DNA of 64,000 nt from Thermodesulfovibrionales bacterium (GTDB lineage: Bacteria; Nitrospirota; Thermodesulfovibrionia; Thermodesulfovibrionales; SM23-35), in the NCBI GenBank assembly GCA_049700155.1, contig JBNAVX010000020.1, positions 13,906-77,905 of the forward strand, in the 5' to 3' direction. The notes below the pieces were generated by a model. That model was not told the origin of the DNA. It did not search any database and saw nothing but the letters and a program-made list of their open reading frames with translations. Shown piece after piece: positions 42,556-53,964 of this stretch; the stretch's first letter is position 1, and each line of letters starts with the position of its first letter. Made by a program: the position numbers and the translations under genes.

Positions 42556-44961
42556 ATGGACTCGAGAGTAAAAATATTAGTAAAGGGAATTGTTCAGGGT
42601 GTAGGTTTTAGACCTTTTGTTTATAACCTCGCAAAATCTTTAAACCTCAAAGGCTTCGTTATGAATTCTTCAAAAGGGGTTACTATTGAAATTGAAGGTA
42701 ATGGTAGTTCTCTTTTTATTGAAAGACTTAACCATGAAGCACCTCCCCTTTCCCGTATCATGAGCATTGATGTTATCCCACTACCATTCTATGGTTATAG
42801 TGATTTCCGAATAGTAGAAAGCGAGGACGAGGGAAGTTTCACTCTCGTCTCACCAGATGTCTCTATATGTAAGGATTGTTTTAAAGAGCTCTTAGATATA
42901 AATGACAGGCGCTATCTTTATCCATTTATAAATTGCACTAATTGTGGGCCCAGATATACGATCACAAAATCAGTGCCTTATGATAGACCAAATACTACAA
43001 TGTCAGTATTCAAGATGTGTTCTGAATGCAATGAAGAATACCATGATCCTGAGGACAGACGATTTCATGCCCAGCCCAACGCATGTCCTGTATGCGGTCC
43101 TCATGTGAAGTTGATAGTTAATAATAAAAGGGGTAAAGCAGGAGTAAACGATAGCACCCCTAAAATTAATAAAAAAGAAAATCCTGTAAAAGAGACAATC
43201 AGACTTCTGAAGGATGGATATATTATTGCTATAAAAGGGCTTGGTGGTTTTCATTTAGCCTGTGACGCATCCAATAATGAAGCAGTAAATAAATTGAGGT
43301 TAAGGAAGAGGAGAAGTAATAAACCATTCGCACTTATGGCCCCTGACATTGAAACTATCAAAAAATTCTGTGAGGTCTCTGAAAAAGAAGAGGAACTTCT
43401 TTTATCTAATAAAAGACCTATTGTTTTATTAAAGAAGAAAGGAAACTACCTGCCTGAAGAAGTTTCTCCTAAAAATCCTTATCTTGGCTTCATGCTACCC
43501 TATACCCCATTGCATTACTTACTTTTTTACTTCCCTTTAAATTCCTCATATATAACTCATAACTCAGAACTCAGAACTAACTTTGATGCCCTCGTTATGA
43601 CGAGTGGAAATCACTCGGAAGAACCCATTGTTATTGATAATGAAGAAGCTATTTCTTCTCTATCCAATATCTCTGATGCGTTTCTTATTCATAACAGAGA
43701 TATATTTATGCGTGTTGATGACTCTGTTGTAAAGGTCTTCAGCCATAAAACCAATATCCTGAATAAACAGATAGCACTTTCATCTCATATCACTCAGTCT
43801 TTCACCCTATTTATTCGCCGTTCTCGTGGTTATGTCCCTGATCCTATTTTCCTCCATGAAGAAGGTCCTGAGGTTCTCGGTTGTGGAGCTGATATAAAAA
43901 ATACCTTTACACTTACAAAAGGAAACTTTGCTATACCGAGCCAGCATATAGGCGATATGGAAAACTATGAAACACTGATGTTCTTTGAAGAGAGTCTTGA
44001 AAACCTGAAAAAGGTTTATAGGGTTAAACCTGAAGCTATTGCATATGACTTACATCCTATGTACTTATCCACCCAGTGGGCACTCAAACAGAATAATATA
44101 AAAAAGATCGGGATACAACATCATTATGCTCATATTGCTTCTGTCATGGCTGAAAGAGGAATCACTGAAAAGGTTATCGGTGTATCATTTGATGGGACAG
44201 GGTATGGTACTGATGGAAACCTGTGGGGTGGAGAATTTCTGATAGCTGATATAAATGGTTTCAAAAGGGCTGGGCATTTTAGATATATTCCTCTTCCAGG
44301 CGGGGAAATAGCAGTGAGAGAACCATGGAGAACTGCTATAAGCTATATATGGAACACAGCTAGAGAGCAAACTATGTATTATATTGATTGTCTTGGTTTC
44401 CCTGATAGGTATGGTATAGAACAGATAAATAAAATTTTGAAGATTATAAATGAAAAACAGTTTTCACCTCTTTCATCAGGTGCTGGAAGGTTATTTGATG
44501 CAGTTTCATCAATGCTTGGTATATGTGACAGGAATACATTTGAAGGAGAGGCTGCGATAGCACTCGAATCTATAACACGATCAGACGTTTCTGGTGATTA
44601 TACAGTGAATATAATATCCAAGGATATACTTGAGATAGATTTTTCCCACACTGTTTTGGGAATTATAGAAGATCTCCTCAAAGGAGAAGACAGGGGTTTC
44701 ATTGCATCTAAGTTTCATAATACTATAGCTTCAGTCATTTTTAGGGTTGTTCAGAAACTCTCTTCATACAATAATACAGATATTGTTATTCTCAGTGGTG
44801 GAGTCTTTCAGAATATGTATCTTCTTGAAAGAACTATCTCATTACTTGAAGCAGCTGGGAAAGAGGTTTATACAAATACAAAAGTTCCATGTAATGATGC
44901 AGGGATATCCCTTGGACAGGCTTATATATTAAGAGAATGGATAAAATCAGGAAGAGAGTAA
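42556..44961 (+). CDS. hypF: Carbamoyltransferase HypF
   Basis: 801 aa. Acylphosphatase-like N-terminus (VQGVGFRPFVY), two CxxC-x18-CxxC zinc fingers, a YrdC-like domain and a Kae1-like C-terminal domain. Confidence 0.96.
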   Translation: MDSRVKILVKGIVQGVGFRPFVYNLAKSLNLKGFVMNSSKGVTIEIEGNGSSLFIERLNHEAPPLSRIMSIDVIPLPFYGYSDFRIVESEDEGSFTLVSPDVSICKDCFKELLDINDRRYLYPFINCTNCGPRYTITKSVPYDRPNTTMSVFKMCSECNEEYHDPEDRRFHAQPNACPVCGPHVKLIVNNKRGKAGVNDSTPKINKKENPVKETIRLLKDGYIIAIKGLGGFHLACDASNNEAVNKLRLRKRRSNKPFALMAPDIETIKKFCEVSEKEEELLLSNKRPIVLLKKKGNYLPEEVSPKNPYLGFMLPYTPLHYLLFYFPLNSSYITHNSELRTNFDALVMTSGNHSEEPIVIDNEEAISSLSNISDAFLIHNRDIFMRVDDSVVKVFSHKTNILNKQIALSSHITQSFTLFIRRSRGYVPDPIFLHEEGPEVLGCGADIKNTFTLTKGNFAIPSQHIGDMENYETLMFFEESLENLKKVYRVKPEAIAYDLHPMYLSTQWALKQNNIKKIGIQHHYAHIASVMAERGITEKVIGVSFDGTGYGTDGNLWGGEFLIADINGFKRAGHFRYIPLPGGEIAVREPWRTAISYIWNTAREQTMYYIDCLGFPDRYGIEQINKILKIINEKQFSPLSSGAGRLFDAVSSMLGICDRNTFEGEAAIALESITRSDVSGDYTVNIISKDILEIDFSHTVLGIIEDLLKGEDRGFIASKFHNTIASVIFRVVQKLSSYNNTDIVILSGGVFQNMYLLERTISLLEAAGKEVYTNTKVPCNDAGISLGQAYILREWIKSGRE

Positions 44962-44969
44962 ATATAAAA

Positions 44970-46058
44970 ATGGGGGAAAAGATGAAAGAGGTACCTAAAA
45001 AGATAAAGGATTTAATGAATAATATTAAAAGACCTGTAAAACTTATGGAAGTGTGCGGGACTCATACAGTAGCTATATTTAAACATGGTATCAGAGACAT
45101 CATTCCAAGAGAAATTACCCTTCTCAGCGGTCCCGGATGCCCTGTATGTGTTACAGCAATAAAAGATGTAGATATTGCAATAGCAATATCTAAGATGAAC
45201 AGCAACATATTATTTACATTTGGTGATATGATGCGAGTTCCGGGAAGTAAACAATCTTTTTATCAGGCACAAGCAGAGGGGGCAAATATAAAGATTGTTT
45301 ACTCTCCAATGGATGCTCTGGATTTTGCCCTAAAAAATAGGGATAGAAAAGTAATATTCTTTGCAACTGGTTTTGAGACAACCTCACCATCCATAGCAGG
45401 GACACTCTATGAGGCAGAAAAAGCAAATGCACAAAATTTTTATATATACTCTACTCATAAGTTGGTCCCACCTGCTCTGAAAGCACTTCTTGATTCAGGA
45501 GAAGTAAGATTAGATGGACTTATTTTACCCGGACATGTTTGCACAATTACAGGACCAAAACCATATGAATTTCTTGTTTCTGATTATAAGGTCCCTTCAG
45601 TAATAACAGGCTTTGAAGCTGAAGACATACTTCAGGGTATTATGATGCTCCTTGAGCAGATTGCATCAAATCAACCATCTGTAGATATTCAATATAAAAG
45701 AGCTGTCAGAAAAGAAGGCAATCCTAAGGCAGTATCACTCATAAATGAATATTTTGAACCATGTGATGCAAACTGGAGGGGGATCGGCACAATACCTCTG
45801 AGTGGTTTGAAATTGAAAGACAAATATAGCCGCTGGGATGCAACTAAAAAATTTGAAATCGATGTTCCTGAAGTTAAAGAACCAAAGGCATGCCAGTGTG
45901 GTTTTGTTCTTAGAGGAATAAAGATACCCACAGATTGCCCGCTTTTTGGGAAAACCTGTACTCCTGAAAGACCCGTTGGAGCATGCATGGTAAGTTCTGA
46001 AGGAAGCTGTGCAGCATATTTTAAATATGGATTTAAATATGGAAAGAGAGAAAATTAG
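44970..46058 (+). CDS. hypD: Hydrogenase maturation protein HypD
   Basis: MEVCGTHT and GPGCPVCV motifs. Start is either ATG 44970 or ATG 44982 (GGGGGA Shine-Dalgarno sequence upstream). The tracked start at 44937 overlaps hypF. Confidence 0.93.
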   Translation: MGEKMKEVPKKIKDLMNNIKRPVKLMEVCGTHTVAIFKHGIRDIIPREITLLSGPGCPVCVTAIKDVDIAIAISKMNSNILFTFGDMMRVPGSKQSFYQAQAEGANIKIVYSPMDALDFALKNRDRKVIFFATGFETTSPSIAGTLYEAEKANAQNFYIYSTHKLVPPALKALLDSGEVRLDGLILPGHVCTITGPKPYEFLVSDYKVPSVITGFEAEDILQGIMMLLEQIASNQPSVDIQYKRAVRKEGNPKAVSLINEYFEPCDANWRGIGTIPLSGLKLKDKYSRWDATKKFEIDVPEVKEPKACQCGFVLRGIKIPTDCPLFGKTCTPERPVGACMVSSEGSCAAYFKYGFKYGKREN

Positions 46059-46059
46059 G

Positions 46060-47058
46060 ATGGATAGGGTTCTTCTCAGCCACGGTAGTGGCGGAACAAT
46101 GATGCACAAGTTAATAAGAGAGCATTTCGCACCTGAGTTTGATCTTAAATCTCTCAATGATTCAGCAGTTCTTGAAAGAATAAAAAAGGGGAAACTTGCT
46201 TTTACAACTGATTCTTATGTAGTGTCTCCCATATTTTTCCCCGGGGGCAATATTGGAGAGCTTGCAGTCTATGGCACTGTAAATGACCTATCTATGGTAG
46301 GAGCACAACCTCTTTATATTACTGTAGGATTTATACTTGAAGAAGGTTTTCAGTTCGAATATCTAAAGAAAATACTTTCCTCTATGTCAGATGCTTCTGA
46401 GAAAGCAGGGGTTAAGATTGTGGCAGGTGATACAAAGGTAGTTAATAAAGGAAAAGCTGATGGTATCTTTATAAATACATCAGGAATTGGAGTGATTGAA
46501 GATAAAATTGAAATATCACCCTCTAAAGTAAAACCGGGGGATAAGATTATTCTGAGTGGACCTATAGGGAATCATGGCATTTCAGTAATTGGTGAAAGAA
46601 ATGGCATCAGTTTCAACCCTCCTGTATTGAGTGATACAGCTCCTTTAAATGGTCTTGTTAAAGATATGCTGAAGATTACAAAAAAGATCCATGCAATGAG
46701 AGACCCAACAAGAGGGGGGCTTGCTACTACACTTAAGGAGATAGCCACAGATTCGGGATATTGTATGTTTATTGAAGAGGAACAAATTCCTGTGCCACCA
46801 GGAGTCAGAGGTGCATGCGAGTTACTTGGACTTGACCCTCTTTATGTTGCTAATGAAGGAATACTTGTAGCTATAGTTAGTCCAGACGTTACAGATAAAC
46901 TTATAAAAGCTATGAAAAGGCATCCATTAGCAAAAGAGGCAAGAATAATTGGAGAGGTGCGGAAGTCACCAGAAGGTATGGTCTTGTTAAAAACATCAAT
47001 AGGTGGAACAAGGATAGTTGAGATGCTCTCAGGAGACCAGCTTCCAAGGATATGCTGA
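46060..47058 (+). CDS. hypE: Hydrogenase maturation carbamoyl dehydratase HypE
   Basis: MDRVLLSHGSGG start right after the hypD stop, an AIR-synthase-like fold, and a C-terminal PRIC motif (catalytic Cys). Confidence 0.95.
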   Translation: MDRVLLSHGSGGTMMHKLIREHFAPEFDLKSLNDSAVLERIKKGKLAFTTDSYVVSPIFFPGGNIGELAVYGTVNDLSMVGAQPLYITVGFILEEGFQFEYLKKILSSMSDASEKAGVKIVAGDTKVVNKGKADGIFINTSGIGVIEDKIEISPSKVKPGDKIILSGPIGNHGISVIGERNGISFNPPVLSDTAPLNGLVKDMLKITKKIHAMRDPTRGGLATTLKEIATDSGYCMFIEEEQIPVPPGVRGACELLGLDPLYVANEGILVAIVSPDVTDKLIKAMKRHPLAKEARIIGEVRKSPEGMVLLKTSIGGTRIVEMLSGDQLPRIC

Positions 47059-47142: not shown

Positions 47143-47868
47143 ATGCTTCTTGGTGTTAATGTTGACCATGTAGCAACTATAAGGCAGGCAAGAAAAGGCT
47201 TTGAGCCAGATCCAGTTATGGCTGCAACTCTTGCAATACTTGGTGGGGCAGATGGAATAACAATACATCTCAGAGAAGATAGACGACATATACAGGATAG
47301 AGATTTAAAAATATTGCGAGAAGTTGTCCCTGTAGAATTGAACCTTGAAATGGCTGCAACTAAAGAGATGTTTAATATTGCAATTAAGACAAAACCCGAC
47401 ATGATAACAATTGTACCTGAAAAGCGCCAGGAGCTTACAACTGAAGGAGGTCTTGATGTAAAGACTCAGAAAAAGGCTATTCAGGACTTTATAAGAAAGC
47501 TTCAGGATAATGGATTGCCTGTAAGTCTTTTTATAAATCCAGAACCAGATGATATCGCAATCTCAAAAGAAACAGGCACAGATATGATTGAAATACATAC
47601 TGGAATGTATGCAGATGCAAAAGGTAAAAAACAAGAGAAAGAACTTTTGCGTGTAATGAATGCTGTAAAACATGCAATAGATATCGGGCTTACAGTTAAT
47701 GCTGGACATGGGCTTAACTATTTTAATGTTACTAAGATAGCAAATATTAAAGGCATCAGAGGACTTTACATTGGACACAGCATTGTCTCTCGAGCAGTCC
47801 TTGTAGGTATGGAGAGAGCTGTGAGAGAGATGAAAGAGCTAATCAGAATAAATTCTAAAACCTCTTAG
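47143..47868 (+). CDS. pdxJ: Pyridoxine 5'-phosphate synthase PdxJ
   Basis: 241 aa. LGVNVDHVATIRQAR and HLREDRRHI motifs. Confidence 0.96.
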   Translation: MLLGVNVDHVATIRQARKGFEPDPVMAATLAILGGADGITIHLREDRRHIQDRDLKILREVVPVELNLEMAATKEMFNIAIKTKPDMITIVPEKRQELTTEGGLDVKTQKKAIQDFIRKLQDNGLPVSLFINPEPDDIAISKETGTDMIEIHTGMYADAKGKKQEKELLRVMNAVKHAIDIGLTVNAGHGLNYFNVTKIANIKGIRGLYIGHSIVSRAVLVGMERAVREMKELIRINSKTS

Positions 47869-48986
47869 AATCTCAAGAAGGCCCCTATTCCACCTGCTTC
47901 TGTCAACTTTTTATTATCTTCAACAACCTCCACCAAGGCACCTTGATTGATAGCTTTTTCCCCTGCGAGGCTTATAAGATAATCAACCATCTCCATACTA
48001 CCTTTACAGTAAGGGCAGGAGCTTACATTCTGTGTGGTCAAAAAACCACATGCTGGACAGAAATAGCCTATTGTCTTTAAATTTTTTGAAATAATTAGCT
48101 TCATCACCCTCTTTTCCTGTAACGCATTAAGAACATCCTCTAACCCGAGCACAGCGTCCTTATTTTTCATAGCTCTTGTAATAAGTTCCTCTATTGTTTC
48201 TTCTTCTTTTTTCTTTTCATATTCTAAAACTATAGGTTCAACTCTTGATAGAACCTCAGAGCTATTAGCAAACATCTCTATCTTGACAGTTCCAATAATT
48301 TTATCAAGAATTTTCTTATGTAACATACCTTTTACCATTGATACTGCTTCGTCAGAACCACCAATTATTATCCTCCCTATATATTCTCCACTCAGAAAAG
48401 AATCCAGCTTTTCAATAACCTCCCTGAGATGCATCCCCACATGGTAATCTATGTGCCTTTCATAATGGTTTTGAGAAAGAGCAAACCATCCACCTTTCTT
48501 ATGTTTTCCAGGAACATCAGGTGTATAAACCTCACCATATTCAATAATTTCTCTGAGATGAACCAGAAATATCCTCGCAAACTCTTTATCCACAAGCAAA
48601 ACGGCATATCGTTGATAATTATCCAGAATATCCATAAGAGGTTTTACATAAGGTGACTTATCAACAATTAATTCATTTTTTACAGGTACACCAAGATGAT
48701 ATTCCTTCCAGAAGGAATTTTTTAAAGAGCTCAGTAAAGCAACTCCCCTTTTAAAAGCCCTCTTATTTGTGAGAATATAATTATCAATCTTTTCTAAATC
48801 AGCCTTTACTTTCTTATAAACACTTTTATCCAGTGTTTCTATAGTATTCTTCATCATATTTTTTAGATGTACAATATAATCTCCCTTTTTGTTGAACATA
48901 GGATCAACATTCAGATATAAACTCACAAAATAACCATCTTTCCGTTCAATAGATGTGACTTCTCTTAATTCAGACCTGCTGAGCAT
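47865..48986 (-). CDS. Bacterial eRF1/Pelota/Vms1-like protein (baeRF-type) with GGW in the GGQ-equivalent loop and a C-terminal-domain zinc ribbon
   Basis: 373 aa. KHKKGGWFALSQNHYERH aligns by eye to the eRF1 GRGGQSALRFARLR loop. DAVLGLEDVLNALQEKRVMKLIIS and the terminal GGIGAFLRF match eRF1 domain 3. CPACG-x11-CPYC forms the ribbon. Confidence 0.65.
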   Translation of the reverse strand: MLSRSELREVTSIERKDGYFVSLYLNVDPMFNKKGDYIVHLKNMMKNTIETLDKSVYKKVKADLEKIDNYILTNKRAFKRGVALLSSLKNSFWKEYHLGVPVKNELIVDKSPYVKPLMDILDNYQRYAVLLVDKEFARIFLVHLREIIEYGEVYTPDVPGKHKKGGWFALSQNHYERHIDYHVGMHLREVIEKLDSFLSGEYIGRIIIGGSDEAVSMVKGMLHKKILDKIIGTVKIEMFANSSEVLSRVEPIVLEYEKKKEEETIEELITRAMKNKDAVLGLEDVLNALQEKRVMKLIISKNLKTIGYFCPACGFLTTQNVSSCPYCKGSMEMVDYLISLAGEKAINQGALVEVVEDNKKLTEAGGIGAFLRF

Positions 48987-50022
48987 TTTTCCCTCCTTCT
49001 ACACTTCTGAAAATTTCAATGACTGATATAAATAGTGCAATTACAAGTGGTCCCATAATAAGCCCAATTAAACCGAGTAATTTTATACCTCCGAGGACGC
49101 TGAAAAAGATCACGATTATCGGCATCTTTGTTCGACCGCCTATTATGATGGGCTTCAATATATTGTCTACTAAACTTATCCCAAATAGACCAATAATTGC
49201 AAGTATGAAACCTTTTAATACTGCACCTTTTAAGAAGAGATAAATTGTTGCTGGAACCCATATTGAAGATGCTCCAAGTAAAGGGACAAAAGAAGCAATA
49301 GATGTAGCAAGTCCCCAAACAACAGGTGTTGAGATTCCAAGTATAAAAAATGCAAGACCTGCGATTGTGCCTTGCATAATTGAGACAGCAACACCCCCGT
49401 AAATTGTAGAGATAATAATATCTCTTATCTGTTTCACAAGCCTGTCTTTCTGTGTTTCAGAAAAAGGCATATAATCACGAACTTTACTCAGAAATTCAGG
49501 TCCATCTTTTAAAAAGAAGTATATTGAAAAAACCATAAATATTAAGTCAATTGACACAGTAACAACATTAGTAGCTCCCTTTGTAATTTTTGTAACTATC
49601 TCTTTACCTAACCGCGAAATATTTTCAACAATCGCCTGATTAAGTTCCTCTTCTGAAAGATTAAGTATAGAAAGTAAACTTTCGGTTATTGATCTAATGC
49701 TTGGATGTTGTAATAAACTTTCCAGAGCATCAAGCATATCAGTTTCCAGATAGCCAGCCAGATCTTTTAATTCAATCACAAGTAAATATGTAAGATATGA
49801 AAAAGGACCAAGAATTATAATAAGTATGATGGTCAGTGTAAGAAGGGCTGCGATAGTTTTCCATTTAAGATATTTAAGAATAAAGACATAAACAGGATAA
49901 AAAACAATAGAAAAGACAATTGCCCAGGCTATAGGCGTTAAAAATGGCTTTAATATCTGATAAGTCAGAAAACCGAGTATTATTATTAAAGTAATAACAG
50001 CAAAAAGATAAAATCTCGTCAT
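48970..50022 (-). CDS. AI-2E family transporter (PerM/UPF0118)
   Basis: 350 aa with 7-8 TM segments and the typical central soluble insertion and glycine-rich C-terminal helices. Its 3' end overlaps the start of the eRF1-like gene by 17 nt. Confidence 0.8.
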   Translation of the reverse strand: MTRFYLFAVITLIIILGFLTYQILKPFLTPIAWAIVFSIVFYPVYVFILKYLKWKTIAALLTLTIILIIILGPFSYLTYLLVIELKDLAGYLETDMLDALESLLQHPSIRSITESLLSILNLSEEELNQAIVENISRLGKEIVTKITKGATNVVTVSIDLIFMVFSIYFFLKDGPEFLSKVRDYMPFSETQKDRLVKQIRDIIISTIYGGVAVSIMQGTIAGLAFFILGISTPVVWGLATSIASFVPLLGASSIWVPATIYLFLKGAVLKGFILAIIGLFGISLVDNILKPIIIGGRTKMPIIVIFFSVLGGIKLLGLIGLIMGPLVIALFISVIEIFRSVEGGKNAQQV

Positions 50023-53427: not shown

Positions 53428-53442
53428 TTGAAAGGAGGAGCC

Positions 53443-53964
53443 ATGAATATTATTGTTACTGGAAGACATTTTGAAGTTACAGATGCTTTAAGAAAATATG
53501 CAGAAGGGAAAATAAAAAAATTTGATCGTTATCTCTCTAATATAACAGAGGCGATAGTAACCCTTAGTATCGAAAAATATAGGCATAAGGCTGAAGTTCT
53601 TCTTAAAGTTAATGGTTACCTCATACAAGCAGAAGGAATAACAGGTGAAATATATTCTTCGATAGATGAAGTAGTCGAGAAACTTGAAAGACAGGTAAAA
53701 AAGTATAAGGAGAAGCTTGTATCTCATAGAAAAGGTGAGGGAAAAACAAACTTAACAGAGTCTGTTACTACTCCTAAAGAAACAGGGAAAATCATAAAGA
53801 ATAAGAGATTTGAATTGAAACCTATGAGTCAGGACGAAGCTGTTATGCAGATGGACCTCCTTGATAAGGATTTTTTTATCTTCACGAATGAGAACACTGG
53901 AAATATAAATGTACTCTATCGTAGAAAAGACGGAAATTTTGGACTTATAGAGCCTTTAAAGTAA
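53443..53964 (+). CDS. hpf: Ribosome hibernation promoting factor, long form (HPF)
   Basis: ATG 53443 is preceded by AGGAGGAG. MNIIVTGRHFEVTDALRKYAE N-terminus, plus a C-terminal dimerisation domain (MSQDEAVMQMDLLDKDFFIF). Confidence 0.93.
   Translation: MNIIVTGRHFEVTDALRKYAEGKIKKFDRYLSNITEAIVTLSIEKYRHKAEVLLKVNGYLIQAEGITGEIYSSIDEVVEKLERQVKKYKEKLVSHRKGEGKTNLTESVTTPKETGKIIKNKRFELKPMSQDEAVMQMDLLDKDFFIFTNENTGNINVLYRRKDGNFGLIEPLK

What the first reader, a model, noticed from the sequence alone, without database searches (positions are those of the whole stretch)
47865..48986. Bacterial eRF1/Pelota-like protein with GGW replacing GGQ and a zinc ribbon, translationally coupled to an AI-2E transporter
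Seen directly:
- The C-terminal third (DAVLGLEDVLNALQEKRVMKLIIS ... GGIGAFLRF) matches eRF1/aRF1/Pelota domain 3, including the characteristic terminal GGI-x-A-x-LR(F/Y).
- It is interrupted by a CPAC-x12-CPYC zinc ribbon.
- The central region PGKHKKGGWFALSQNHYERH aligns by eye with the eRF1 GGQ loop (GRGGQSALRFARLR) but reads GGW (codons at 48486-48494).
- No NIKS-like motif is evident in the N-terminal domain.

Established knowledge: bacteria terminate translation with RF1/RF2. eRF1-fold proteins in bacteria (baeRF / Vms1-like families) are rare, poorly characterised, and proposed to act in ribosome rescue or RNA-based conflict.

The upstream AI-2E transporter gene overlaps this gene by 17 nt, which suggests obligatory co-expression with a membrane protein.
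Basis: partly seen in the sequence, partly recalled or inferred. Interest (0 to 1): 0.6.

Follow-up and report, generated by a model that had tools for sequence, protein, structure and literature searches.

The report
Balon-type eRF1-like ribosome factor, GGW loop
This gene encodes a bacterial copy of the archaeal/eukaryotic release-factor fold, in the same protein family as a recently solved ribosome "hibernation" factor, so it is a recognisable member of a known family; it has a tryptophan where the catalytic glutamine should be and a lineage-specific pairing with a membrane transporter.

Summary
A 373-aa ORF lies on the minus strand at 47865-48986, with GGW at 48486-48494, a four-cysteine zinc ribbon (CPAC-x10-CPYC, not x12), an eRF1-type C-terminus, no NIKS, and a 17-nt overlap with an upstream AI-2E transporter gene.

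It is a member of Pfam baeRF_family10. Its best sequence and fold match in the PDB is Msmeg1130 (Balon), a cryo-EM-validated A-site hibernation factor that is itself family 10. Archaeal aRF1 scores almost as well. Profile alignment to aRF1 (PGKHKMGGQ---SQRRYER versus PGKHKKGGWFALSQNHYER) places W167 at the catalytic-Gln position. The nearby Q172 matches aRF1's non-catalytic second Gln and is Q in only 46% of relatives. The zinc ribbon is ancestral aRF1 architecture and the most conserved feature.

The AI-2E pairing is real: 56 of 70 related Nitrospirota loci, usually overlapping, with the Shine-Dalgarno inside the AI-2E gene. It is lineage-specific, was lost repeatedly, and is normally part of a longer gene array. 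Distant family members sit beside heat-shock genes instead.

Most likely it is a non-hydrolytic, stress-induced ribosome A-site blocker. An active peptidyl-tRNA hydrolase, as the public annotation says, is not excluded. Verdict: new member of a known kind, moderate interest.

The parts
47865..48986 (-). baeRF_family10 (aeRF1-fold, Balon-type) gene, 373 aa, ATG start, TAA stop
   Evidence: ORF list. Pfam PF18854, 99.4 bits against a cutoff of 27.1. PDB best hit is Msmeg1130/Balon. AF2 model pLDDT 85.5.
48651..48986 (-). N-terminal domain (about residues 1-112). It carries the family-conserved S22/Y24/L25 strand and the NVDP loop, and has no NIKS.
   Evidence: Secondary structure of the model. 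Y24 is 95% and S22 94% conserved among 142 representatives. The aRF1 NIKS segment aligns to a variable helical-hairpin tip. No NIKS or HP in the sequence.
48237..48650 (-). Middle (RNase-H-like, eRF1_2 / baeRF_family10) domain, residues 113-250
   Evidence: Pfam PF18854 covers residues 112-250 and eRF1_2 covers 127-236.
48453..48512 (-). aRF1-type 'GGQ' loop, PGKHKKGGWFALSQNHYERH (residues 159-178). GGW lies at 48486-48494 and Q172 at 48471-48473.
   Evidence: Coordinates. Alignment to aRF1 PGKHKMGGQ---SQRRYER and eRF1 PKKHGRGGQSALRF. GGW is invariant in the clade. Among 142 representatives W is 64%, G166 85%, R177 88% and Q172 only 46% Q. The loop has low pLDDT (53-58), so it is flexible.
47868..48209 (-). 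C-terminal eRF1_3/Pelota-type domain (residues 260-373), ending GGIGAFLRF
   Evidence: Pfam eRF1_3, 25.9 bits against a cutoff of 25.8. The C-terminus aligns to aRF1 GGYAGILRY and eRF1 GGIGAVMRY.
48006..48059 (-). Cys4 zinc ribbon CPAC-x10-CPYC (residues 310-327), inserted in domain 3
   Evidence: The four Cys are invariant in the clade and 97-100% conserved in 142 representatives, the most conserved columns of all. The ribbon aligns to the insert of H. salinarum aRF1 (YECPN...EHTCSDCGEE) and to the Cys-less insert of Msmeg1130.
48991..48996 (-). Shine-Dalgarno GGAGGG for the baeRF gene, 4 nt upstream of its ATG and embedded in the AI-2E coding sequence
   Evidence: A GGAGG-type SD is present in all 56 AI-2E-linked loci.
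48970..48986 (-). 17-nt overlap between the AI-2E stop region and the baeRF start
   Evidence: The overlap is conserved in 52 of 56 loci, ranging 8-188 nt.
48970..50022 (-). AI-2E family transporter gene (350 aa), upstream partner in the two-gene unit
   Evidence: Pfam PF01594, 168.7 bits, covering residues 9-337. It reaches no NCBIfam subfamily cutoff. An AI-2E gene is adjacent in 56 of 70 informative loci.

Best explanation
The gene encodes a Balon-type member of the bacterial aeRF1 clade (Pfam baeRF_family10).

Shown here:
- It has the three-domain aRF1 fold.
- It is most similar to Msmeg1130, a factor solved on the 70S ribosome in the A site.
- It lacks the stop-codon-reading NIKS element.
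- It keeps an almost intact aRF1 catalytic loop, but with Trp in place of the catalytic Gln.
- It keeps the aRF1 zinc ribbon at the site where Balon homologues carry an insertion in their EF-Tu-binding region.

Inferred:
- Under stress or starvation the protein enters the ribosomal A site independently of mRNA, probably together with EF-Tu contacted through domain 3 and the zinc ribbon.
- The flexible Gly-Gly hinge places W167 at or near the peptidyl-transferase centre. There the indole stacks on rRNA or tRNA bases (for example A2602 or the CCA end) instead of activating water.
- The result is translation blocked and the ribosome protected, without release of the nascent chain.

Genomic setting in this Nitrospirota lineage:
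- The gene is co-transcribed and probably translationally coupled with an AI-2E family exporter.
- Ancestrally it sat inside a co-directional array: Amidase_3, amidohydrolase, Peptidase_C26, AI-2E, baeRF, SBP_bac_5.
- I read this as co-regulation in a nutrient or stress programme, not as a physical transporter-factor machine.
For: Family and fold:
- Pfam baeRF_family10, 99.4 bits, E = 2.9e-28.
- Msmeg1130 itself scores 124.7 bits on the same model.
- Best PDB sequence hit is Msmeg1130/Balon, full length, at 2.5e-11 for the single sequence, 1.3e-12 for the clade profile and 2.6e-36 for the family profile.
- Best fold hits are 8v9j_z/8v9l_z, Msmeg1130 on 70S (E = 7e-24, TM 0.62-0.65). They rank ahead of aRF1, P. 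urativorans Balon, Rv2629, eRF1 and Pelota.

Function of relatives:
- Msmeg1130 and Rv2629 bind the A site and inhibit translation about 15-fold in vitro (PMC10901736).

Catalytic loop:
- W167 aligns to the GGQ Gln with high posterior probability.
- Only 1 of 142 representatives reads GGQ there. W is 64%, and aromatic or hydrophobic residues account for much of the rest.
- Q172 aligns to the non-catalytic second Q of aRF1 GGQSQ. It is Q in 46%, E in 23% and A in 14% of representatives.
- Rv2629, solved on the ribosome, has AGW aligned to the family GGW.
- No NIKS.

Genomic context:
- Distant family-10 members sit beside GrpE, ClpB, DnaJ, DnaK, Hsp20, HspR-type MerR, HtrA and an ECF sigma. This matches the stress-operon theme reported for Balon homologues, including transporter neighbours such as EmrB, MarC and Smr.
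- No PADLOC defence hit.
Against: - There is no experiment on any member of the GGW/zinc-ribbon subgroup.
- The protein falls far below the NCBIfam cutoffs of all three curated Balon families: 95 against 480, 56 against 330, and 47 against 320.
- It scores almost equally well against aRF1 (91.7 bits; 118.6 against 128.8 bits).
- It retains Gly-Gly and an aRF1-like loop. Burroughs & Aravind singled out family 10 as possibly catalytic.
- From general knowledge of bacterial RFs (not checked here), the Gln backbone rather than the side chain carries much of the catalysis, so GGW need not be dead.
- Balon's literal HP motif is absent.
- The bL27 trap and lasso loop could not be assessed.
- The neighbours in Nitrospirota are not classical stress genes.
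- A canonical long HPF already exists in the window.
Confidence: 0.6

Rival explanations
1. It is an active, stop-codon-independent peptidyl-tRNA hydrolase (a ribosome-rescue factor), as implied by the public annotation 'Vms1/Ankzf1 family peptidyl-tRNA hydrolase'. The Gly-Gly hinge delivers the loop into the peptidyl-transferase centre. Hydrolysis is promoted by backbone groups at W167 or by Q172 (a GGx..SQ motif in the Vms1/VLRF1 style). Chaperones or proteases then deal with the released chains.
For: - GG is retained and the loop length is tightly constrained within the clade.
- Q172 is at least 90% conserved within the clade.
- There is a weak Pfam acVLRF1 hit, 28.1 bits against a cutoff of 27.1.
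- NCBI records name close homologues Vms1/Ankzf1 family hydrolases.
- Proteostasis neighbours (ClpB, DnaK, DnaJ, GrpE, Hsp20, HtrA) in distant members would also suit a release-and-degrade pathway.
Against: - The catalytic-position residue is Trp, and Gln is almost never there: 1 GGQ in 142 representatives.
- Q172 aligns to aRF1's second, non-catalytic Gln.
- Q172 is E or A in 37% of representatives, and E in several clade members with 62-68% identity.
- In this clade a 3-residue insert (FAL) moves SQ away from GG, breaking the GGxSQ spacing.
- The closest solved relatives block translation rather than release peptides.
- The acVLRF1 hit is dwarfed by the family-10 hit on the same region.
Confidence: 0.2
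2. The AI-2E protein and the eRF1-like protein form a physical membrane-associated module. The transporter recruits or gates the ribosome factor, for example to silence membrane-bound ribosomes, or to pair drug or ion efflux with protection of the A site and peptidyl-transferase centre.
For: - The pair is adjacent in 56 of 70 informative loci, down to 49% identity.
- The genes overlap in 52 of 56 loci, with a conserved SD inside the AI-2E coding sequence.
- The pair relocated as a unit in the window's lineage while all other neighbours changed.
- Other Balon homologues neighbour efflux pumps.
- Membrane-anchored ribosome inactivators exist (title and abstract of 10.1101/2024.08.16.608256).
Against: - AI-2E is missing at 14 of 70 informative loci. 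The NJ tree interleaves these with AI-2E-containing loci, suggesting at least 5 independent losses while baeRF is kept.
- AI-2E is not next to any of the 7 more distant family members examined.
- In most genomes the pair is just two genes of a 6-7-gene co-directional array with equally tight junctions.
- No paper holding the phrase 'AI-2E family transporter' together with ribosome or release-factor terms surfaced in the search.
- No interaction test could be run.
Confidence: 0.1
3. It is a genuine stop-codon-reading class-I release factor used alongside RF1/RF2.
For: Full-length similarity to aRF1: TIGR03676 at 91.7 bits, 4af1 at 118.6 bits with the family profile, and Foldseek E = 7e-21.
Against: - No NIKS.
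- The segment aligned to NIKS is variable across the family.
- No GGQ.
- The score is far below the TIGR03676 cutoff of 234.7.
- baeRF-1 proteins have never displaced RF1/RF2.
Confidence: 0.02

Closest known systems
Msmeg1130 (MSMEG_1130), the mycobacterial 'Balon' hibernation factor (PDB 8V9J/8V9L; Helena-Bueno et al. 2024, PMC10901736)
   Same: - Same Pfam family, baeRF_family10.
- Best sequence and fold match over the full length.
- Same three-domain layout.
- Shared N-domain SLY(L/F)N(V/A)DP strand-loop and C-terminal G.(G/A)A.LR(F/W) ending.
- No NIKS and no GGQ.
   Different: - Only about 20% identity, and 95 bits against an equivalog cutoff of 480.
- Msmeg1130 has lost the four cysteines; a Cys-less insert sits at the ribbon site.
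- Msmeg1130 reads ..ERAGQMREQ.. where this protein reads KKGGWFALSQ.
- Msmeg1130 is hypoxia-induced, whereas this gene is tied to an AI-2E transporter.
Balon of Psychrobacter urativorans (8RD8/8RDV/8RDW) and Rv2629 of M. tuberculosis (8V9K)
   Same: - aeRF1 fold (Foldseek E = 6e-18 and 7e-17).
- Both are A-site binders.
- Rv2629 carries AGW aligned to this family's GGW.
   Different: - More distant: 59 and 75 bits with the family profile, and 56 and 47 bits on their NCBIfam models.
- Balon has an HP motif, a lasso loop, a bL27 trap and an EF-Tu beta-hairpin.
- This protein has no HP dipeptide, an aRF1-like loop, and an intact zinc ribbon.
Archaeal aRF1 (for example H. salinarum 4AF1, A. pernix 3AGK)
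   Same: - Nearly as close as Msmeg1130 (118.6 against 128.8 bits).
- Loop PGKH..GG.SQ..YER is nearly identical to A. pernix PGKHKMGGQSQRRYER.
- Cys-containing insert at the same domain-3 site, and the same C-terminal motif.
   Different: - Catalytic Gln replaced by Trp.
- A 3-residue FAL insert in this clade.
- NIKS decoding element absent.
- Below the TIGR03676 cutoff.
- Bacterial host that presumably uses RF1/RF2.
baeRF-1 clade, family 10, of Burroughs & Aravind 2019 (PMC6514570)
   Same: This is the family the protein belongs to. It has the three-domain arrangement, and the family was predicted to insert into the A site and to link to translational shutdown.
   Different: The authors highlighted a conserved Gln and possible hydrolase activity. 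Here that Gln maps to aRF1's second, non-catalytic Gln and is poorly conserved, whereas Trp occupies the catalytic position. The HPF neighbourhood they describe is only incidental here.
Vms1/ANKZF1/VLRF1 peptidyl-tRNA hydrolases
   Same: aeRF1 superfamily. Marginal acVLRF1 Pfam hit. Public records use this name for close homologues.
   Different: - Different clade.
- The VLRF1 catalytic GxxQ/GGxSQ spacing is not kept.
- acVLRF1 lacks the N-terminal codon-binding-type domain that this protein retains.

Membership tests
Pfam PF18854 baeRF_family10 | Score above the curated gathering threshold (27.1 bits) on the middle domain | tested here: met
   99.4 bits, E = 2.9e-28, residues 112-250 matching profile positions 1-139 of 143.
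aeRF1 superfamily (aRF1/eRF1/Pelota fold) | Three-domain architecture: N domain, RNase-H-like M domain, Pelota-type C domain | tested here: met
   AF2 model at pLDDT 85.5. Foldseek full-length matches to Msmeg1130, aRF1, eRF1 and Pelota, 48 hits at E <= 1e-3. eRF1_2 and eRF1_3 both score above their Pfam cutoffs.
Balon-type hibernation factors (sensu Helena-Bueno et al. 2024) | Bacterial aeRF1 homologue of at least 300 aa lacking the NIKS motif | tested here: met
   373 aa with no NIKS. The aRF1 NIKS segment aligns to a non-conserved hairpin tip.
Balon-type hibernation factors (sensu Helena-Bueno et al. 2024) | Lacks the GGQ motif | tested here: met
   The motif reads GGW, with W at the Gln position. 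Caveat: the Gly-Gly and the flanking aRF1 loop are retained, unlike Msmeg1130.
Balon-type hibernation factors (sensu Helena-Bueno et al. 2024) | HP motif in the N domain contacting the decoding centre | tested here: not met
   There is no HP dipeptide anywhere in the protein. Whether the conserved NVDP loop is a functional equivalent could not be tested.
Balon-type hibernation factors (sensu Helena-Bueno et al. 2024) | Lasso loop around A2602 and the bL27 trap | not testable with these tools
   This needs residue-level superposition on 8RDV or a ribosome complex.
Balon-type hibernation factors (sensu Helena-Bueno et al. 2024) | Beta-hairpin insertion in the C domain that contacts EF-Tu | tested here: inconclusive
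   An insert exists at the same site but is an intact Cys4 zinc ribbon. It aligns to the Cys-less insert of Msmeg1130. Burroughs & Aravind regard the two-strand insert as a possible degenerate zinc ribbon.
Balon-type hibernation factors (sensu Helena-Bueno et al. 2024) | Binds the ribosomal A site and inhibits translation | not testable with these tools
   Requires biochemistry or cryo-EM.
NCBIfam NF052288 MSMEG_1130 family, NF052287 AOC03_06830 family and NF052289 Rv2629 family ribosome hibernation factors (equivalogs) | Score above the curated cutoffs (480, 330 and 320 bits) | tested here: not met
   95.4, 55.7 and 47.1 bits. The protein is related to these curated subfamilies but is not a member of any.
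Class-I release factor aRF1/eRF1 (TIGR03676) | Score of at least 234.7 bits, plus GGQ and NIKS motifs | tested here: not met
   91.7 bits. GGW instead of GGQ, and no NIKS.
Vms1/ANKZF1/VLRF1 peptidyl-tRNA hydrolases | Conserved catalytic Gln in a GxxQ / GGxSQ loop | tested here: not met
   The loop is GGW-FAL-SQ. Q172 aligns to aRF1's non-catalytic second Gln and is Q in only 46% of 142 representatives. The acVLRF1 hit is marginal at 28.1 against a cutoff of 27.1.
AI-2E transporter family (PF01594), for the upstream partner | Full-length match above the gathering threshold | tested here: met
   168.7 bits against 34.3, residues 9-337 matching profile positions 3-325 of 327. No NCBIfam subfamily cutoff is reached.

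The most novel reading that the evidence does not exclude
The GGW/zinc-ribbon subgroup of baeRF family 10 is not just another Balon. It would be a mechanistically distinct factor, an almost unaltered aRF1 catalytic loop re-tooled by a single Gln-to-Trp change. It would insert fully into the peptidyl-transferase centre, either clamping peptidyl-tRNA or competing with PTC-binding toxins. In Thermodesulfovibrionia it would work as a physical or regulatory pair with its translationally coupled AI-2E exporter, linking membrane efflux or ion status to A-site and PTC occupancy.
Probability: 0.12. Interest if true: 0.7.

Novelty: new member of a known kind. Interest (0 to 1): 0.35.

Why it matters
- It moves an apparently exotic 'bacterial eRF1' into an experimentally grounded family, Balon/baeRF family 10.
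- It flags a probable mis-annotation in public records, where close homologues are named 'Vms1/Ankzf1 family peptidyl-tRNA hydrolase'.
- This subgroup keeps the aRF1 catalytic loop and zinc ribbon almost intact while swapping only the catalytic Gln for Trp. That makes it a natural intermediate between a release factor and a hibernation factor. It is a clean system for asking which changes convert one into the other (W167Q, G165A/G166A, Cys-to-Ser).
- The conserved, overlapping AI-2E partner gives a testable but lineage-restricted lead on how ribosome silencing is wired to membrane physiology in Nitrospirota.

Tried and rejected
1. Canonical release factor. Rejected: no NIKS or GGQ, and below the TIGR03676 cutoff.
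2. Q172 as a displaced catalytic Gln (GGxSQ, Vms1-like). Considered because Burroughs & Aravind report a conserved Gln in family 10. Downgraded for two reasons:
   - aRF1 itself reads GGQ-SQ, so this Q is the second, non-catalytic one.
   - It is Q in only 46% of representatives.
3. HPF neighbourhood as functional evidence. A long HPF lies 3.4 kb away, but the proximity exists only in the 7 closest loci. Rejected as genus-level synteny.
4. Cis-regulatory RNA or heat-shock operators upstream of the pair:
   - No Rfam hit at E <= 1.
   - No CIRCE or HAIR match.
   - Only 2-3 sigma-54 or sigma-32 consensus matches in 55 upstream regions.
   - Sigma-70-like and terminator-like hits are no more frequent than in shuffles.
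5. An apparently conserved upstream 'motif' (TGGCATCC) turned out to be the GVQWHPE coding signature of a Peptidase_C26 gene.
6. Defence-system membership. No PADLOC hit for either protein.
7. Literature:
   - No paper combined GGW with bacterial aeRF1 and peptidyl-tRNA hydrolase terms.
   - The search for 'AI-2E family transporter' with ribosome or release-factor terms surfaced no relevant paper among those listed.
   - The held Balon supplementary text has no Nitrospirae entries.
   - Shaw & Green 2007 could not be retrieved, so the tolerance of GGQ-Gln substitutions rests on my general knowledge only.
8. Residue-level 3D superposition of the GGW loop on GGQ was not possible because model coordinates are not exposed. 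I relied on profile alignments with high posterior probability.
Full report
**Observation**

The window carries a 373-aa ORF on the minus strand at 47865..48986.
  - GGW is residues 165-167, at 48486-48494.
  - The loop PGKHKKGGWFALSQNHYERH is residues 159-178.
  - The C-terminus is GGIGAFLRF.
- The zinc ribbon is CPAC-x10-CPYC (residues 310-327), not x12.
- The protein contains no NIKS and no GGQ.
- The upstream ORF 48970..50022 (-) is a full-length AI-2E transporter (PF01594, 168.7 bits).
- Its stop overlaps the downstream ATG by 17 nt. A GGAGGG Shine-Dalgarno (48991-48996) lies inside the AI-2E coding sequence.
- The start codon is secure. M1 is invariant and L2 at least 90% conserved in the 33-sequence clade alignment.

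**What it is**

- Pfam places the protein in baeRF_family10 (99.4 bits, E = 2.9e-28). Weaker overlapping hits go to baeRF_family3, eRF1_2, acVLRF1 and eRF1_3.
- NCBIfam gives sub-threshold full-length matches:
  - MSMEG_1130-family ribosome hibernation factor, 95 bits against a cutoff of 480.
  - aRF1/eRF1, 91.7 bits against 234.7.
  - The Psychrobacter-Balon family, 56 bits, and the Rv2629 family, 47 bits.
- The only strong PDB sequence hit is Msmeg1130, 'Ribosome hibernation factor Balon' (8V9J), over the full length.
- An AlphaFold2 model built on 33 homologues is confident (pLDDT 85.5). Only residues about 160-180, the GGW loop, are low.
- Foldseek ranking:

| Target | E-value |
|---|---|
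| Ribosome-bound Msmeg1130 (TM 0.62-0.65) | 7e-24 |
| aRF1 4AF1 | 7e-21 |
| P. urativorans Balon | 6e-18 |
| eRF1s | 9e-18 and weaker |
| Rv2629 | 7e-17 |
| Pelota/Dom34 | 5e-11 and weaker |

- I reconstructed residues 9-375 of Msmeg1130 from the alignment printout. It scores 124.7 bits on Pfam baeRF_family10. The experimentally validated factor and this protein therefore share a curated family.

**What is known about that family**

- Burroughs & Aravind (PMC6514570):
  - They defined the bacterial aeRF-1 (baeRF-1) clade and argued that most families are catalytically dead A-site binders linked to translational shutdown.
  - They singled out family 10 as having a conserved Gln that might be catalytic.
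  - They noted that classical aeRF-1 has a zinc ribbon inserted in the Pelota domain, degenerate in many bacterial families.
- Helena-Bueno et al. (PMC10901736):
  - They showed that Balon, Msmeg1130 and Rv2629 occupy the A site.
  - Balon and Msmeg1130 were also captured on the ribosome together with EF-Tu.
  - All three lack NIKS and GGQ.
  - The two mycobacterial proteins inhibit translation about 15-fold in vitro.
  - Their 'Balon homologues' are essentially all bacterial aeRF1 homologues of at least 300 aa, found in about 20% of representative bacteria and typically in stress operons, sometimes next to efflux pumps.

**The catalytic loop**

- Profile alignments with high posterior probability line the loop up as follows:

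| Protein | Loop |
|---|---|
| This protein | PGKHKKGGWFALSQNHYERH |
| A. pernix aRF1 | PGKHKMGGQ---SQRRYERI |
| H. salinarum aRF1 | PGKQRKGGQSAQRFARL |
| S. pombe eRF1 | PKKHGRGGQSALRFARL |

In the wider family the motif is typically GGW-SQ-x-R-x-QRH, and this Nitrospirota clade has a 3-residue insert, giving GGW-FAL-SQ.
- aRF1 itself reads GGQ-SQ, so this Gln is the ancestral second, non-catalytic one.
- Conservation among 142 unbiased representatives with 27-58% identity to the query:

| Position | Conservation |
|---|---|
| Four Cys | 97-100% (the most conserved columns) |
| R177 | 88% |
| G166 | 85% |
| G165 | 75% |
| W167 | 64%, with F, L, M or R in some of the rest |
| Q172 | Q 46%, E 23%, A 14% |

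- Only one representative reads GGQ.
- Rv2629, solved on the ribosome, carries AGW aligned to the family's GGW.
- This pattern fits a loop that must reach the peptidyl-transferase centre and present an aromatic residue. It does not fit a loop that needs a catalytic Gln.

**The zinc ribbon and the N domain**

- The ribbon aligns to the Cys-containing insert of H. salinarum aRF1 (YECPN...EHTCSDCGEE) and to the Cys-less insert of Msmeg1130.
- It is therefore retained ancestral architecture. It lies at the site where Balon homologues carry an insertion in their EF-Tu-binding region and Balon carries its EF-Tu-contacting beta-hairpin.
- The segment aligned to aRF1's NIKS is a variable helical-hairpin tip.
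- The conserved N-domain element is the SLYLNVDP strand-loop, shared with Msmeg1130 (SLYFNADP).

**The AI-2E linkage**

- A scan of species-representative genomes found 298 relatives. The 80 best (55-89% identity) are almost all labelled Nitrospirota/Thermodesulfovibrionia.
- AI-2E is immediately upstream on the same strand in 56 of the 70 loci with enough upstream DNA.
- The genes overlap in 52 of 56 loci (8-188 nt, most often 8). All 56 have a GGAGG Shine-Dalgarno upstream of the baeRF start.
- The ancestral setting is a longer, tightly packed, co-directional array: Amidase_3, (CbiQ-like), amidohydrolase, Peptidase_C26, AI-2E, baeRF, SBP_bac_5. Median junctions are near zero. The array extends to a 49%-identity relative.
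- In the window's own lineage (window plus 7 loci) the AI-2E/baeRF pair alone was relocated between lptC and pdxJ.
- In contrast, 11 loci have Peptidase_C26 directly followed by baeRF. On an NJ tree these interleave with AI-2E-containing loci, suggesting several independent losses of AI-2E (the tree has no support values).
- A 42%-identity relative has GGDEF/EAL, baeRF, two DUF1538 genes and P-II instead.
- Six distant family-10 members, mostly Chloroflexota-type, sit beside the following:
  - GrpE, ClpB, DnaJ and HSP70
  - Hsp20, HspR-type MerR and thioredoxin
  - HtrA, NfeD/ClpP and Tricorn
  - an ECF sigma
- The transporter pairing is therefore real, old and probably co-translated. It is also lineage-specific and dispensable. 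The family-wide theme is heat-shock and proteostasis stress.

**Regulation and other checks**

- No Rfam element.
- No CIRCE or HAIR operators, and no convincing sigma-54 or sigma-32 consensus, upstream of the AI-2E gene.
- Promoter-like and terminator-like hits do not exceed shuffles.
- No PADLOC defence model matches either protein.
- There is only one family member in the window.

**Mechanism**

- Best-supported (confidence about 0.6): a Balon-type, mRNA-independent A-site blocker.
  - Shown: the fold, the family, the nearest solved relative, the lack of decoding and catalytic motifs, and the stress context of the family.
  - Inferred: A-site binding, EF-Tu contact through domain 3 and the zinc ribbon, and W167 stacking at or near the peptidyl-transferase centre in place of water activation.
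- Main rival (about 0.2): an active rescue hydrolase, which is the public annotation. It is supported by the retained Gly-Gly and the constrained loop. It is weakened by the Trp, the poor conservation of Q172 and the broken GGxSQ spacing.
- A physical AI-2E/factor module (about 0.1) and a true release factor (about 0.02) are less likely.

**Novelty and score**

- The family is curated and has solved, functionally tested members, so this is a new member of a known kind.
- Residual interest lies in three things:
  - the near-intact aRF1 loop with a single Gln-to-Trp change,
  - the universally conserved zinc ribbon,
  - the conserved overlapping AI-2E partner.
- It also lies in correcting the 'Vms1/Ankzf1 peptidyl-tRNA hydrolase' label.
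- Interest 0.35.

Noticed in passing
window 53428-53964 (+): A long-form HPF (Ribosomal_S30AE plus S30AE_C) follows rpoN in an lptC-lptA-lptB-rpoN-hpf-rapZ cluster. The cluster is divergent from the AI-2E/baeRF pair and about 3.4 kb from the AI-2E start. This genome therefore encodes a canonical hibernation factor near the Balon-type gene.
   Followed up: yes
L085 4001-5479 (protein P0272; also P0137): In some Chloroflexota-type family-10 members an N-terminal zf-HC2 anti-sigma domain is fused to the complete eRF1-like body, with no transmembrane segment. The gene overlaps an upstream ECF-sigma (Sigma70_r4_2) gene and is followed by HSP20, DoxX, DnaJ and MerR. This could couple ribosome occupancy to ECF or heat-shock transcription.
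   Followed up: partly
L087 1-6722; L055 1751-8725; about 40 further loci: Across Thermodesulfovibrionia the eRF1-like gene is embedded in a tightly packed co-directional array: AMIN-Amidase_3, (CbiQ-like), amidohydrolase, Peptidase_C26, AI-2E, baeRF, SBP_bac_5. The mix looks like cell-wall or peptide turnover plus uptake. Why a ribosome factor sits there is unexplained.
   Followed up: partly
PDB chain 8v9k_z (Rv2629), alignment: Rv2629 reads ..KPVTAGWNGYGDFQH.. aligned to the family's ..KHKQGGWSQARLQRH... The conserved Gly-Trp is therefore present in a factor whose ribosome-bound structure already exists. The role of that Trp could be read directly from 8V9K.
   Followed up: no
homologues P0006, P0008, P0033, P0038, P0092, P0097, P0115, P0116: NCBI records name close homologues 'Vms1/Ankzf1 family peptidyl-tRNA hydrolase', and JGI records name them 'peptide chain release factor subunit 1'. 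Neither name is supported by the motif analysis here.
   Followed up: yes
L089 4001-5122 and flanks: A 42%-identity relative lies between a PAS-GGDEF-EAL protein and two DUF1538 membrane proteins plus a P-II protein. This is another membrane or signalling context, different from AI-2E.
   Followed up: no
window 47865-47868: The convergent pdxJ gene (47143-47868, +) and the eRF1-like gene share 4 nt at their 3' ends (overlapping stop codons). That leaves no room for a terminator between them.
   Followed up: no
L014 and L015 (same MAG, DeMMO4_11): Two separate short contigs of one MAG each carry an AI-2E/baeRF pair (each 74% identical to the window protein). This is either a duplication or strain heterogeneity in the bin.
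   Followed up: no
window 42556-47058 (+): Hydrogenase maturation genes lie just upstream of pdxJ. The 349-aa ORF at 46009-47058 has the AIR-synthase-type domains expected of HypE. The 801-aa and 373-aa ORFs before it look like HypF and HypD by eye and were not tested. They are unrelated to the finding but help place the organism as an anaerobic Nitrospirota.
   Followed up: no
L038 (contig JBLMXV010000145.1): One locus with the typical Peptidase_C26, AI-2E, baeRF arrangement (63% identity) is labelled as a Chloroflexota MAG. This is probably a binning error rather than horizontal transfer.
   Followed up: no
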